A stretch of DNA of 64,000 bases from Malacoraja senta. Taxonomy: Eukaryota. The notes beneath the pieces are model-generated. The model saw only the letters and a program-made list of their open reading frames with translations, searched no databases and was not told where the DNA came from. Location of the stretch: contig CM075991.1 of NCBI GenBank assembly GCA_038087875.1, forward strand, positions 13,394,001-13,458,000. The letters run 5' to 3'. Below, in pieces: positions 2,005 through 64,000 of this stretch (the stretch's first letter is position 1; the number at the start of each line of letters is the position of its first letter). A program made the translations under genes and the position numbers.

Positions 2005-2295
2005 CAGAGAGTGCTGGAGTAACTCAGCGGGTCAGGCAGCATCTGTGGAGAACATGGATAGGTGACGTTTCACAGACACAGTGCTGGAGTAACTCAGCGG
2101 GTCAGGCAGCATCTGTGGAGAACATGGATAAGTGACGTTTCACAGAGTGCTGGAGTAACTCAGCGGATCAGGCAGCATCTGTGGAGAACATGGATAAGTG
2201 ACGTTTCACAGAGTGCTGGAGTAACTCAGCGGGTCAGGCAGCATCTGTGGAGAACATGGATAGGTGACGTTTCGGGTGGAGACCCTTCTTCAGAC
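2005..2295. repeat. Tandem array of a 66-bp Penelope-derived unit (4 copies)
   Basis: CACAGAGTGCTGGAGTAACTCAGCGGGTCAGGCAGCATCTGTGGAGAACATGGATAGGTGACGTTT. Confidence 0.9.
2266..2295 (-). ncRNA. Minimal hammerhead ribozyme motif
   Basis: GUCUGAAGAAGGGUCUCCACCCGAAACGUC. Confidence 0.65.
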
Positions 2296-2539
2296 ATGAC
2301 AGAGCAGCACGAGCCCTCTACACTGATACGGACAGTGGGCCACTAGAACGCTGGTAGAACCCGGAGTTCACCCTCAACCCACTGCATTGCTCCTTGCTGA
2401 ACAGAGGGACAGGTCAGGTTCAGGGCCAGCGTGCTTGTGAGAGTTGATAAAATATCACTAGTTACTTCACTCACTTCAACTGTGTTCTCTCCGCAGCCTT
2501 TCAGAATTCCTTGCAGTAAACTGTTACGTTTAGTCACGT

Positions 2540-2725
2540 AAGGTAGACAAAAATGCTGGAGAAACTCAGCGGGTGAGGCAGCATCTATGGAGCGAAGGAA
2601 ATAGGTGACGTATTGACCCGAAACGTTGCCTATTTCCTTCGCTCCATAGATGCTGCCTCACCCGCTGAGTTTCTCCAGCATTTTTGTCTACCCTCGATTT
2701 TCCAGCATCTGTAGTTCCTTCTTAA
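2540..2725. mobile_element. Penelope-derived fold-back element with 14-bp target-site duplication
   Basis: Perfect 64-bp inverted arms 2542-2605 and 2629-2692; ACGTTTAGTCACGT at 2526-2539 and 2726-2739. Confidence 0.85.
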
Positions 2726-3418
2726 ACGTTTAGTCACGTGCAGTCTTTCCGCTGACTGGTTAGCACGCAACAAAGAGCTTTTCACTGTACCTCGGTACAC
2801 GTGACAATAATAACAAACAAGGCCTTCCTACAATGGAGATCTACAATGTGTCAGCCTCTGCAGTACCAGCTAAAGATGAACCCCCCTCCATCCCTCCCTC
2901 CCTCTGAGCACAGAGATTAGACATTACACACGTGACACAGTGGCTCCCCCTGCCCAATGCCTGGCCCACCGTGCCCACTACTGCTGCCGTTGAGGGCATC
3001 GAACCAGCGCCTGGCCGGGTCCGCTGTGCGGCACGCACACACGTATACACACACGCGCACACACATACGCGCACACACACACGCGCACACACACACACAC
3101 ACACCTGTAATGGTTCATGTGGACACCGACGCTCACAGAGCTGCACGTCTGTTCGCCGAAACTAACTAAACCAGGAACCAATTTAAAATGGGAGGGTGCG
3201 GGACTCATGAACATAATGCAGGTGTAAAATGCCTGAGACCAGTGGAGCAATGAAGTCAGGCTGTCTGTGTGGGTGGGTGTTCACTGTGGTTAGTGCAAAC
3301 ATGACAAGTATTGGTGCTGTCCATGGTGACAGCTGGTACGTGGCTTGGCGTGGCTCCCGGCTCCCGGCTCAGTCACCTTGTTTACATCCAGTCCCATTGC
3401 CCTTCCTCTATTCCCATT

Positions 3419-3692
3419 TCACGACTCCGTTTTCTCTTTCTTTTTACTCTTTTTCAAGAAGGACGGGGTTCGGAATTTCTTCTTCTTTTTGGACGGAGAC
3501 TTGGAAGGAGAGCCATCGGGGGAGAGAGGGGTACTTGCCGGAGGCTCGGTCTTGTCCTTAGCTGGTTTAACGGGTGGTTCAGTGCCATTCTCCACGTTGG
3601 TCCTCACTCCTTCCACAGGCTGGTCCTCCTCCTCCTCCTGGCCCCCGGCTCTTGCTCTGCCTGCTCCTTCAAACCTTCAGCTGGCTTGGTTT
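3419..3692 (-). CDS. ADD2: ADD2 last coding exon (MARCKS-related domain)
   Basis: ttcctcaag|[17 protein letters not shown](G)[19 protein letters not shown]...[34 protein letters not shown]; needs +1 base at the C-run 3642-3646. Confidence 0.92.
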
Positions 3693-61488: not shown

Positions 61489-61641
61489 TTCAGTACCTCC
61501 GGACTCCTCCAAAATAATATGTAGCAGGCGAATGTATTCTGATGCAGCTCTGAGCACGTGCACTTTGCTTGGTTTTCGATCTTTAGCAATCAAGGGCACA
61601 ACACTCTTGAGCATTGAAAAACCACCGTTTATGCTCTGGAT
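61489..61641 (-). CDS. FIGLA: FIGLA (factor in the germline alpha) HLH-encoding exon
   Basis: ttatttcag|[51 protein letters not shown]|gtaagg; 153 nt, phase 0-0; helix-loop-helix with the RKPSKV signature; next to ADD2 as in human. The basic-region exon was not found and is presumably beyond 64000. Confidence 0.88.
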
Positions 61642-62738
61642 CTGAAATAATTACATATTTTCTGAGAAACTGCACATCAAGAACATTACAGCCTTTACAT
61701 TTGAGGTTTTCACTAATAATTTAAAGGATAAAATACAATCAAATAGCAAAGTCAGCAAGACATCATTTCAGTTTCAGTTGTCTAACATAACCTGATGGTT
61801 ACTTCCTTGCAGTGAATTTCAATGTGCTACTAGTTTAAATAATATTTAGTGGATATGGCAACTTTTAACTGCTCAAAACCTTTTACTTCCAGGATGAAGA
61901 ACATTTGAAAACTTCCACTTTACAAGCAAAAAAATAAATAAAAATGTAATTGCAGTATTCAAATCTGGACAATTATGTCTCTTTTTGACCAAATCTATAT
62001 TAACCCAAAAATAATTCATAACCACTCAGATGATAAACAATTTTAAGATTTAAGTTTTTTCTATTTATCCAAATGAGTTATCGGGATTGAGTTCTGGACA
62101 TTGATCTAGAAATGCAAGTTCCAATCCCACTCTATCAAAGGACTTTAAAGTCAAATAATGAAATTAATATGGATGTTCTTTAAAAATTTGGAACCTGTAG
62201 TTTGAAAAGACTCTTTAATGGGATTAGCAGACTGTCTTTGTAAAGCCCACATTCTGAAACTATCATAAATTACCAGAGAAACACCATGCCAATTTAAATA
62301 CTCGCATCCAATTCATGTGGGTTCCAGGACTTAATTACACGAGCCTCTTAATAACCTACCCAACTTGCTTTTCCTATTCCAGTTGTTTGTCATAGTTATC
62401 ACACCCAGAACCACCCGCTAAAGGAATTAAATCAAATACCAAGCATGACTACATCGCTGCTTAATGTATTTCCAATAATTCCGTGGTAGTTTCCTGACAG
62501 TTTCTTATGTACTTCAACTGTAATATAAAAACTGTTACATCTAAGCATTTACTAACTTCTATACAAATTGTTAATACATAAGAGAGGCAATAATAATTAT
62601 AGAACATGTTATAGAAGTTAACAGAATATTTTGCCTGTGAACAACAACTAATCCAACTATATTATATGTTTAAGAAAGAACTGCGGATGCTAGAAAAATC
62701 GAAGGTAGACAAAAATGCTGGTGAAACTCCAATTCAAA

Positions 62739-62768
62739 GTCTGAAGAAGGGTTTCCACCCGAAACGTT
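62739..62768 (+). ncRNA. Minimal hammerhead ribozyme motif
   Basis: GUCUGAAGAAGGGUUUCCACCCGAAACGUU. Confidence 0.6.
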
Positions 62769-62843
62769 GCCTATTTCCTTCGCTCCATAGATGCTGCTGC
62801 ACCCGCTGAGTTTCTCCAGCATTTTTGTGTACCTTCTTAAACC

Positions 62844-64000
62844 CTGCTGGAGAAACTCAGCGAGTGAGGCAGCATCTATGGAGCAAAGGAATAGGCGAGG
62901 TTTCAGGGGGGGGGGTAAAAGAAAGGAAGACGCGGAGACAGTAGGCTGTGGGAGAGCTGAGAAGGGGAGGGGAAGGAGGGAAAAAGCAAGGACGACCAGA
63001 AATTGGAGAAGTCAATGTTCATACCACTGGGGTGTAAACTACCCAAGCAAAATATGAGGTGCTGCTTTTCCAATTTGCAGTGGGACTCACTCTGGCCATG
63101 GATGAGGCCCAGGACAAAAAGGTCGGATTCGGAAAAAGAGGGGAAGTTGAAGTGCTGAGCCACCAGGAGATTAGATTGTTTATTGCAAACTTAGCGGAGG
63201 TGTTGGGCGAAGCAACACCAAGCCTGCACTTGGTCTCACTGATGTAGGGCAGTTGACACCTGGAACAGCAGATGCAATAGACGAGATTGGAGGAGGTGAA
63301 GGTGAACCTCTGCCTCACCTGGAAAGACTTTGGATGGAGTCGAGGGGGGAGTGAGAGGGGGGGGGGGGTAAAGCAACAAGTGTAGCATTTCCAGCAGTTG
63401 CAAGGGAAAGTAACAGGGGAGGGGGTGGTTTGGGTGGGAAGGGACGAATTTACCAGTGAGTTACGGAGGGAGCGGTCTCTGCGGAAAGCAGAAAGTGGAG
63501 GAGATGGGACGATGTGGCCAGTGGTGGGATCCCGTTGGAGGTGGCGAAAATGTCAGAGGATTATATGTTGTATGCGACGGCTGGTAGGTTGGAAGGTGAG
63601 GACAAGGGGGGTGTCCTTGTTACGAGTGGGGGGGGGGGGAGATGGAGAGTGAGAGCGGTGCTACGGGATATAGAGGAGACCATGGTGAGAGCCTCATCTA
63701 TAATCGAAGAGGGGAACCCCCGTTCCATACAGAATGAGGACATCTCTGATGCCCTGGTTTGGAACACCTCATCCTGGGTGCAGATGCAGCATAGACAGAG
63801 GAATAGGGAGTACATTGACTTCTCCAATTTCAGGTAGTCCTTGCTTTCTCCTTCGTTCCCCTCCCCAGCTCTCCTTCCTTCCTCTCCCCAGCCTACTGTC
63901 TCCACCTCTTCCTTTCTTCCCCCCCCCCACATCAGTCTGAAAAAGGGTCTCGACCCAAAATGTCACCTATTCCTTCATTCCATAGATGCTGCCTCACCTG
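62844..64000 (-). mobile_element. Penelope-like element fragment (RT thumb plus GIY-YIG endonuclease) with an inverted copy of its 3' end at about 63812-64000
   Basis: SSNLVYCICCSRCQLPYISET (GIY-YIG), KLEKQHLIFCLGSLHPSGMNIDF, RASEMSSFCMERGFPSSIIDEAL; degenerate. Confidence 0.88.

What the first reader, a model, noticed from the sequence alone, without database searches (positions are those of the whole stretch)
2005..63965. Dispersed family of short Penelope-derived elements carrying minimal hammerhead ribozyme motifs
Seen: a dozen or more copies of a ~100-190-bp repeat with CUGAAGA-A-stem II hairpin-GAAAC-GUC. Best copies are 2266-2295, 49868-49897, 58964-58993 and 62739-62768; degenerate ones lie near 3811, 14000, 15939, 16909, 31397, 35653, 42370, 46360, 55460, 60895 and 63935. 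Stem II loops vary while pairing is mostly kept. The same sequence forms the 3' end of the Penelope fragment at 62.8-64 kb, in sense with its ORF. Known: Penelope-like elements carry minimal hammerheads with a palindromic stem III that cleave as dimers. Inference: this is a non-autonomous, ribozyme-bearing retroelement family mobilised by Penelope; several good copies are in sense within the ADD2 or FIGLA pre-mRNA.
Basis: partly seen in the sequence, partly recalled or inferred. Interest (0 to 1): 0.7.

Follow-up and report, generated by a model that had tools for sequence, protein, structure and literature searches.

The report
Skate retrotransposon ends with relic hammerheads
The short repeat is real and is the end piece of a Penelope-like jumping gene in a skate, carrying a minimal self-cutting RNA motif of a kind already known from such elements, and most copies here are decayed leftovers of insertion.

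Summary
The repeat is real and more frequent than reported: 54 profile hits at 27 loci, against 0 in the reversed window and 1 in 10 shuffles. It is the pseudo-LTR/tail end of a Penelope-like element (PLE) with a Neptune/Nematis-type linker, in a skate. The minimal-hammerhead boxes, stem II and ACGU palindrome are present, but only 6 of 20 arms keep all of them, stem I is 2 bp in 8 of 8, and CpG core positions decay fastest. No hit starts or ends at the cleavage site (0 of 54). Copies instead start just before CUGA, end at two sites about 35 nt apart, and 11 of 27 loci are head-to-head pairs: the known PLE insertion anatomy. Most are best read as very short insertions, not a shown separate non-autonomous family. 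There is no strand bias (10:10), and the 62739 copy is antisense and reads GUU. One oddity: young 66-nt tandem arrays carry only the substrate half of the ribozyme. Verdict: new member of a known kind; cleavage untested.

The parts
62999..63812 (-). 5'-truncated, broken PLE ORF fragment (RT thumb, CX4CxxC linker, GIY-YIG endonuclease); stops and frameshifts
   Evidence: tblastn with whale-shark protein P0001: 51-57% identity, E 8e-60; P0001 has RVT_1 and GIY-YIG hits
62844..62998 (-). Pyrimidine-rich 3' UTR, then the repeat with the hammerhead core deleted (62844-62906)
63812..64000 (+). Inverted duplicate of the element's 3' end: last ORF codons, UTR and repeat (63933 onward, core mutated); cut by the window end
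   Evidence: 82% identical to the - strand UTR
62669..62843 (.). Head-to-head pair; + arm holds an intact core at 62739-62768 (GUU triplet), antisense to FIGLA; tail-end junction shared with two other organisms
   Evidence: bridging contigs X2 record 13 and X4 record 20
60893..61024 (+). Single tailed copy with pyrimidine-rich leader; boxes intact, stem II 3 bp; FIGLA intron, antisense
58898..58995 (-). Single tail-less copy with intact core (58964-58993), about 90 nt after the FIGLA stop and before the first AATAAA (58547-58542): probably 3' UTR, sense
55344..55603 (.). Head-to-head pair with one extra partial unit; G12 lost
52782..52912 (-). Single tailed copy, core broken
51055..51152 (+). 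Single tail-less copy lacking the 5' box
49765..49899 (-). Single tailed copy with intact core (49868-49897), just downstream of a CpG-rich stretch that may be the ADD2 promoter
   Evidence: ADD2 start site inferred
46486..46722 (.). Head-to-head pair, cores broken
46261..46391 (-). Single tailed copy with C-rich leader; G12 lost
42301..42439 (.). Head-to-head pair; boxes intact, palindrome lost
39918..40250 (.). 66-nt tandem array (4 units on -) joined head-to-head to a short + arm
35507..35783 (.). Two-unit array arm (-) joined head-to-head to a tailed + arm (35651-35783)
31393..31521 (+). Single tailed copy, cleavage triplet lost
25544..26029 (-). Headless 66-nt array (about 6 units, begins and ends mid-unit), interrupted in register by a short fold-back piece of the ORF-linked subfamily (about 25822-25958)
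22117..22239 (+). Single tailed copy lacking the 5' box
19662..19756 (+). Single tail-less copy lacking the 5' box
16800..17009 (.). Head-to-head pair (tailed arm plus tail-less arm), core broken
15863..16022 (.). Old head-to-head pair, core broken
13936..14030 (-). Single tail-less copy, G12 lost
11406..11502 (+). Strongly decayed copy with C-rich leader
   Evidence: (E 2.7e-4)
3742..3952 (.). Head-to-head pair in the last ADD2 intron; - arm core (3811-3840) keeps all conserved positions
2536..2726 (.). Head-to-head pair without the 5' box, flanked by a 14-bp direct repeat (2526-2539, 2726-2739) read as a target-site duplication
2003..2295 (-). 66-nt array headed by an intact core (2266-2295), 1.1 kb after the ADD2 stop, in sense
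3419..24929 (-). ADD2 (beta-adducin) coding span (host gene, context)
59085..61644 (-). FIGLA, last three coding exons; first exon lies beyond the window (host gene, context)

Best explanation
The repeat is the 3' part of the pseudo-LTR plus 'tail' of an endonuclease-bearing Penelope-like retrotransposon (Neptune/Nematis-type linker) that amplified massively in skates. Shown: it follows the PLE ORF in sense, carries the minimal type I hammerhead motif, and has two preferred 3' ends. Inferred: the PLE protein nicks DNA and starts reverse transcription inside the RNA at one of two sites about 35 nt apart. On many templates it reaches a fixed RNA boundary 1-4 nt before the CUGA box (a transcription start at the Inr-like TCAGTC, or a 3' splice site). 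This leaves 100- or 135-nt copies, often two joined head to head with the tail on one arm. The template is uncleaved RNA. After insertion the motif decays without sign of selection; with a 2-bp stem I it would cut little or not at all without a partner RNA and the PLE protein.
For: ORF homology and position. Linker C-x4-CxxC in the window, and the motif in 25 of 26 close relatives examined (clade rule from PMC8557442). 3' ends of 40 arms: 16 at model positions 91-110, 19 at 124-135, 0 between, 5 shorter; this fits the 30-40-bp tail and two RT start sites (PMC11167929, PMC8557442). 11 of 27 loci are head-to-head; in 6 of 8 non-array pairs one arm is tailed and the other is not. Contigs of three organisms show the same fold-back joint with many different junction letters. 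0 of 54 hits start or end near the cleavage site, as in the anole element where uncleaved RNA is the main template (PMC11167929). CpG columns changed in 22 of 76 cells against 11 of 190 in the non-CpG core (p 1e-6); strands 10:10. One insertion end is shared with two organisms about 5% diverged.
Against: Only one of three sequence subfamilies (c) is seen attached to an ORF in this window; a and b could be non-coding masters. The 5' boundary was judged with a model that itself starts there, and a leader was seen in 4 of 41 arms. About 1,000-1,400 contigs per run continue past that point with a C-rich, UTR-like plurality consensus (agreement 0.39-0.41), so the boundary is common, not universal. 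No genome and no RNA reads were available, so start site, splicing and cleavage are untested. A 2-bp helix I has precedent in D. virilis Penelope (PMC4209133), so it does not exclude activity.
Confidence: 0.72

Rival explanations
1. One reading: the short units are a self-standing non-autonomous, SINE-like family, transcribed from their own masters and mobilised in trans by the PLE protein, with the hammerhead motif as part of their cycle.
For: Three subfamilies with diagnostic letters. The frame from the ATG in the repeat is open to the tail end in the ORF-linked subfamily c (copy 2610), but has a stop at codon 18 in 5 of 6 tailed a copies (the sixth has a 1-nt insertion and an earlier stop) and at codon 17-18 in 3 of 5 b-like copies. 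Summed contig depth on repeat bins (6-12 million) is several times that on ORF bins (0.8-2.1 million) in run X1 (not a copy number). pLTRs act in trans in rotifers (PMC3846280); animal retrozymes derive from pLTRs (10.64898/2026.07.22.740005).
Against: Fold-back junctions differ from locus to locus, as expected if made at insertion. Excess of 3' ends over ORF is expected from 5' truncation. That ATG is not shown to be the ORF start: the best peptide match to 10 full-length relatives was reached by 16 of 300 shuffles, the next by 5 of 300. No copy starts at the cleavage site.
Confidence: 0.2
2. Some sense copies are co-opted regulators: the intact cores in the probable 3' UTRs of FIGLA (58964-58993) and ADD2 (2266-2295) cut the mRNA off its poly(A) tail, as dimers or with the PLE protein in the germ line.
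For: Both cores are intact and in sense. Unique flank contigs of organisms B and C run 10-19 and 25-27 letters into the FIGLA copy from both sides, hinting that it is shared (below the tool's 31-letter bridging rule). The anole PLE ribozyme is protein-assisted (PMC11167929).
Against: No strand bias overall (10:10). At this density (27 loci in 64 kb) UTR hits are expected by chance. One active dimer core lies 6-21 kcal/mol above the lowest-energy dimer in 6 of 6 copies (secondary-structure model only). 8 of 9 frog retrozyme dimers did not cleave in vitro (10.64898/2026.07.22.740005). UTR limits are inferred.
Confidence: 0.05
3. The hammerhead likeness is accidental: a chance arrangement in an ordinary repeat end.
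For: Rfam finds nothing; stem I is 2 bp; little two-sided covariation.
Against: All conserved boxes, the unpaired base between A9 and G10.1, the G10.1-C11.1 pair and the palindrome match the published minimal-hammerhead features, at the expected place in a PLE pseudo-LTR (PMC4209133).
Confidence: 0.03

Closest known systems
Minimal type I hammerheads (min-HHR) in pseudo-LTRs of metazoan PLEs (Cervera and de la Pena 2014, PMC4209133)
   Same: Boxes CUGANGA and GAAA, bulge after A9, G10.1-C11.1, palindromic 15.2-16.2, place in the pLTR, mostly dispersed single copies, pairs on opposite strands; reported in fish, coelacanth, Xenopus and reptiles.
   Different: Helix II is 4-5 bp here (7-8 in schistosome elements, 6 in D. 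virilis); helix I is 2 bp (4-5 in schistosome elements, 2 in D. virilis). No skate or shark case in the parts I read.
Poseidon element of Anolis carolinensis, PAc (Frangieh et al. 2024, PMC11167929)
   Same: Two RT start sites downstream of the hammerhead that define the tail (111-118 nt past the start of stem II there; long ends about 113-124 nt past A9 here); uncleaved RNA as template.
   Different: PAc is Penelope/Poseidon clade and its ORF starts at stem II; this element has the CX2-5CxxC linker and no ATG in the core.
Neptune/Nematis-type endonuclease-bearing PLEs (Craig et al. 2021, PMC8557442; Arkhipova et al. 2013, PMC3846280)
   Same: C-terminal GIY-YIG, CX2-5CxxC linker, heavy 5' truncation, inverted 5'-truncated copy, tail at one end, palindromes at inverted junctions.
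   Different: Here most insertions are reduced to the last 100-135 nt; clade not placed on a reference tree.
Non-LTR retrozymes of animals (Cervera and de la Pena 2020, PMC7229834; Li et al. 2026, 10.64898/2026.07.22.740005)
   Same: pLTR-derived tandem repeats; the 66-nt arrays fall in the reported 51-972 bp consensus range.
   Different: Retrozymes carry a complete hammerhead in each unit; the 66-nt units lack CUGANGA and stem II, and the dispersed copies are not tandem.

Membership tests
Penelope-like element (EN+) | ORF with PLE-type RT and C-terminal GIY-YIG endonuclease | tested here: met
   Fragment 62999-63812 aligns to P0001 residues 184-450; P0001 has GIY-YIG above cut-off and RVT_1 below cut-off. 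The window fragments alone gave no Pfam hit; the RT core is not in the window.
Penelope-like element (EN+) | Pseudo-LTR after the ORF, inverted 5'-truncated copy, 30-40-bp tail at one end | tested here: met
Penelope-like element (EN+) | Full-length pLTR-ORF-pLTR unit | not testable with these tools
   No genome held; no other PLE ORF fragment in the window
Neptune/Nematis clades | CX2-5CxxC motif between RT and endonuclease | tested here: met
   C-x4-CxxC in the window translation; 25 of 26 close relatives
Neptune/Nematis clades | Placement in an RT phylogeny with reference elements | not tested
   No named reference PLE proteins were on hand
Penelope/Poseidon clade | Absence of the CX2-5CxxC linker | tested here: not met
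Minimal type I hammerhead | Conserved boxes C3-A9, G12-A15.1 and U16.1-H17 in the family majority | tested here: met
   Each non-CpG core column 17-19 of 19; G12 13 of 19; complete in 8 of 20 arms
Minimal type I hammerhead | Helix II with G10.1-C11.1 and a bulge after A9 | tested here: met
   95.8% of cells paired over 4 pairs
Minimal type I hammerhead | Palindromic 15.2-16.2 allowing a dimer helix III | tested here: met
   ACGU in 6 of the 8 complete cores; majority state in 19 copies
Minimal type I hammerhead | Helix I able to close the junction | tested here: inconclusive
   2 bp in 8 of 8; first two pairs kept in 16 and 17 of 19, next two in 4 of 19 each; 2 bp has precedent in D. virilis
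Minimal type I hammerhead | Self-cleavage after NUH as a dimer or with protein | not testable with these tools
   No RNA holder listed; needs a bench assay
Non-LTR retrozyme | Tandem units, each with a complete hammerhead | tested here: not met
   Array units start at G12 and lack the 5' box and stem II; no two adjacent complete cores in the window
Non-autonomous PLE-derived SINE-like family | Own master sequence and fixed structure, independent of ORF-bearing elements | tested here: inconclusive
   Shared junction only in the 66-nt arrays; fold-back junctions vary; subfamilies a and b have no ORF in this window

The most novel reading that the evidence does not exclude
The young 66-nt arrays (one shared junction at 4 loci; units 4% apart against 12% in subfamily a) are a mobile 'half-ribozyme' satellite. 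Each unit keeps only the GAAAC-GUC substrate half and folds a strengthened hairpin that ends at the unit boundary. A complete core, at the array head or on another PLE RNA, pairs through the ACGU palindrome and cuts unit-length 66-nt pieces. These are circularised and copied by the PLE reverse transcriptase into arrays that begin and end mid-unit, as at 25544-26029: a retrozyme that borrows its catalytic half. The ordinary alternatives are a pLTR-derived minisatellite spread by one master, or repeated RT jumps between two hairpin bases.
Probability: 0.06. Interest if true: 0.7.

Novelty: new member of a known kind. Interest (0 to 1): 0.24.

Why it matters
As a class this is known: PLE pseudo-LTRs carry minimal hammerheads and leave dispersed truncated copies. 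Its value is as a dense natural record of the poorly understood PLE insertion mechanism. One window shows two RT start sites, a frequent stop just before the ribozyme core, head-to-head joining, and no trace of cleaved templates. This supports the view that the PLE hammerhead is not needed to make the template. If the 66-nt arrays are cut in trans, they would be a new variant of retrozyme; if the FIGLA UTR copy cleaves, it would be a transposon ribozyme acting on an oocyte gene.

Tried and rejected
No whole genome is held, so no genome-wide consensus. Run search for 61000-62650: no RNA holder listed; no evidence on expression. Rfam scan: no hammerhead; 16 weak matches (mostly microRNA families) on hairpins and simple repeats, all below gathering score. 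A degenerate core pattern found 0 matches in metagenome and viral contigs. One search placed stem I one column off and is discarded; one search replaces it. The core figures printed used wrong columns (its profile also lacks the G8 column) and are discarded; one search replaces them. The idea that the head at 25788-25868 shows a template switch from array RNA was dropped: one search shows an insertion into an existing array. The idea that the tail encodes the ORF N-terminus got no significant support. Consensus folding of 25 copies gave only a 5-bp stem with no two-sided change; fold z-scores of 7 copies ran from -1.9 to 0.0. Target-site duplications: clear at 1 of 23 loci scanned, with a few 7-bp candidates. 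Penelope/Poseidon clade, my first guess, was rejected on the linker. Lunse et al. 2017 is not held; I saw it only as cited in PMC6765202.
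Full report
Observation. A pattern scan and a profile built from 12 window copies confirm the repeat. The profile gives 54 hits at E<=0.01, which group into 27 loci; three hits are weak (E 0.003-0.009). The reversed window gives 0 hits and ten Markov shuffles give 1 in total; the strict core pattern matches 8 times against 0-1 per shuffle. 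Positions written m1-m135 below are columns of that profile: C3 of the hammerhead is m6 and the cleavage site follows m32. The profile lacks the G8 column, so core counts come from alignment A1.

Host context. FIGLA and beta-adducin hits point to a skate: the closest proteins are from Leucoraja and Rhinoraja (94-98% for the FIGLA exon). ADD2 coding exons run from 24929 to 3419 and the last three FIGLA exons from 61644 to 59085, all on the - strand. A CpG-rich stretch at 49-52 kb may be the ADD2 promoter (inference).

The parent element. The - strand from 63812 to 62999 is a broken ORF fragment, 51-57% identical to a whale-shark protein with RT and GIY-YIG hits. After the ORF come a pyrimidine-rich UTR and the repeat. 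At the truncated 5' end an inverted duplicate of the 3' end begins (63812-64000, +). So the repeat does follow the ORF in sense, twice, but both of those cores are broken. The linker holds C-x4-CxxC, as do 25 of 26 close relatives examined. By PMC8557442 (passages) this marks Neptune/Nematis, not Penelope/Poseidon. I built no reference tree.

The hammerhead motif. Of 20 arms that reach the 5' box, 8 keep both boxes and the UH, and 6 also keep the ACGU palindrome: C3 at 2293, 3838, 49895, 58991 (-) and 60897, 62741 (+). The 62741 copy reads GUU. Stem II is paired in 95.8% of cells over 19 copies, with one two-sided change among 4 pairs. This matches the minimal hammerheads of PMC4209133 (text parts 1-2 of 4 read), where D. 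virilis also has a 2-bp helix I and activity in vitro is low even as dimers. One active dimer core lies 6-21 kcal/mol above the lowest-energy dimer in 6 of 6 copies (no tertiary energy in the model). Rfam has no match.

No sign of selection on copies. CpG columns (including G12 and G16.2) changed in 22 of 76 cells, against 11 of 190 in the non-CpG core (p 1e-6). Arms with the 5' box lie 10 on each strand, and all 41 arms split 21:20, although both genes are on -. Four of the six intact cores are in sense: one in the last ADD2 intron, one probably in ADD2 intron 1, and two probably in 3' UTRs (ADD2: 1.1 kb after the stop, no canonical signal before position 504; FIGLA: about 90 nt after the stop, first AATAAA at 58547). 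These limits are inferred.

Anatomy of the copies. I set aside 13 array units or pieces, leaving 41 arms. 5' starts: 16 at m2-5 without a leader, 4 with a UTR-like leader, 15 at m6-26, 6 beyond m36. No hit of the 54 starts or ends at m30-36, where cleavage products would. 3' ends of 40 arms: 16 at m91-110, 19 at m124-135, none between, 5 shorter. Eleven of 27 loci are head-to-head, and in 6 of 8 non-array pairs one arm has the long end and the other the short end. One pair has a 14-bp flanking direct repeat. This is the described PLE pattern: inverted 5'-truncated copy, 30-40-bp tail at one end, palindromes at the junction (PMC8557442; PMC3846280, passages). In the anole element two internal RT start sites define the tail, uncleaved RNA is the main template, and the ribozyme cuts only with the protein (PMC11167929, parts 1-2 of 4). 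Caveat: the profile starts at the boundary it measures, and leaders were judged by eye and by BLAST within the window.

Evidence from other DNA. I laid contigs of 3 of the 5 listed runs (three organisms) on 58300-63800. About 246,000-294,000 contigs per run were laid. In X1, summed depth is 6-12 million on repeat bins, 0.8-2.1 million on ORF bins and about 30 on unique bins; the tool warns this is no copy number, but the family is clearly very abundant. The best-supported joints link the 5' end of one arm (58991-58998) to m16-25 of an opposite arm, with many different junction letters, in all three organisms; 4,298 further joints were not shown. Against a universal boundary, 1,000-1,400 contigs per run continue past 58996 with a C-rich, UTR-like plurality consensus. 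Contigs of organisms B and C, about 5% diverged (56 of 1181 and 68 of 1273 letters), bridge the end of the 62669 insertion, so it is old and shared.

Mechanism. Shown: origin, motif, end positions, decay. Inferred: RT starts inside the RNA at one of two sites and often runs only to a boundary 1-4 nt before CUGA, giving 100- or 135-nt products, singly or head to head. The boundary fits an initiator (TCAGTC; consensus recalled; an Inr-like motif in a pLTR is reported in PMC3846280, and PMC2377424 places the Penelope promoter in the pLTR, passages). It equally fits a 3' splice site (pyrimidine tract plus CAG at 63933-63935), as in D. virilis, where the intron ends at helix I (PMC4209133). I could not separate the two. 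Either way these short templates leave only a few nucleotides for the 5' strand of stem I.

Non-autonomous family? Three subfamilies are visible; only c is ORF-linked here. A frame from the ATG in the repeat is open in c but stops in most tailed a and b copies; that ATG is not shown to be the ORF start. The question stays open (about 0.2).

The 66-nt arrays. Four loci carry tandem units spanning m25-91 with the same junction (2003-2295, 25544-26029, 35507-35644, 39918-40193); one unit at 2074-2141 is 70 nt. Twelve units differ by 4% on average against 12% for subfamily a. Units lack CUGANGA and stem II, so they fail the retrozyme definition of 10.64898/2026.07.22.740005 (parts 1-3 of 5 read; supplements closed and may list the chondrichthyan families) and differ from the repeats of PMC7229834 (passages). 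At 2003-2295 the intact head could pair with the next unit through ACGU, giving a 4-bp stem III, but this fold is 10.6 kcal/mol above the minimum. A minisatellite spread from one master, or RT jumps between hairpin bases, is more likely than trans-cleavage.

Literature. Eight searches listed no paper on this skate family; I saw those results as listings only, except the papers named. PMC6765202 was read in passages. A term search of 2 supplement files of PMC4209133 found no shark or skate; file 1 was not searched. Dfam and Repbase were not available and may well hold the element. An earlier scan note on a ray genome reached the same 'ordinary' verdict; it is not independent evidence.

Verdict. 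Observation confirmed with corrections; interpretation partly supported. New member of a known kind; interest 0.24.

Noticed in passing
window 2003-2295, 25544-26029, 35507-35644, 39918-40193: Young 66-nt tandem arrays with one shared junction, all on the - strand, carrying only the GAAAC-GUC half of the hammerhead; the unit ends at the base of a hairpin strengthened by array-specific letters.
   Followed up: partly
window about 1862-1960 and 2393-2495: Inverted arms of about 100 bp (92% identical over the 53 bp matched) enclose the 2003-2295 array downstream of the ADD2 stop; a MITE-like element or a long hairpin in the probable 3' UTR.
   Followed up: no
window 25822-25958: A short fold-back piece of the ORF-linked subfamily inserted in register into a 66-nt array, suggesting homology-guided insertion into related sequence.
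   Followed up: partly
window 63827-63936: Possible intron from near the ORF stop to the CAG just before the hammerhead core; good pyrimidine tract and acceptor, weak donor by eye.
   Followed up: no
protein P0017 residues about 111-141: The Mobula beta-adducin model contains an extra segment like the antisense translation of this repeat: the family probably also occurs in devil rays and may be mis-annotated or exonised there.
   Followed up: no
window 58898-58995: Intact core about 90 nt after the FIGLA stop; flank contigs hint that the insertion is shared by three organisms (below the bridging rule).
   Followed up: partly
window 31243-31392, 26281-26423, 34247-34702, 15010-15150: Another dispersed repeat of at least 140 bp (83-93% identical), probably a SINE; the 31393 copy sits at its simple-repeat tail.
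   Followed up: no
window 4.8-9.3 kb, 11.6-13.3 kb, 17.1-18.9 kb, 20.1-21.3 kb and others: ADD2 introns are unusually rich in G+C minisatellites with periods of 9-37 nt.
   Followed up: no
window 60692-60892: The leader of the 60893 copy is itself repeated in the runs (depth 113,000-256,000 in that bin) and differs from the UTR of the ORF-linked element: probably another PLE lineage.
   Followed up: partly
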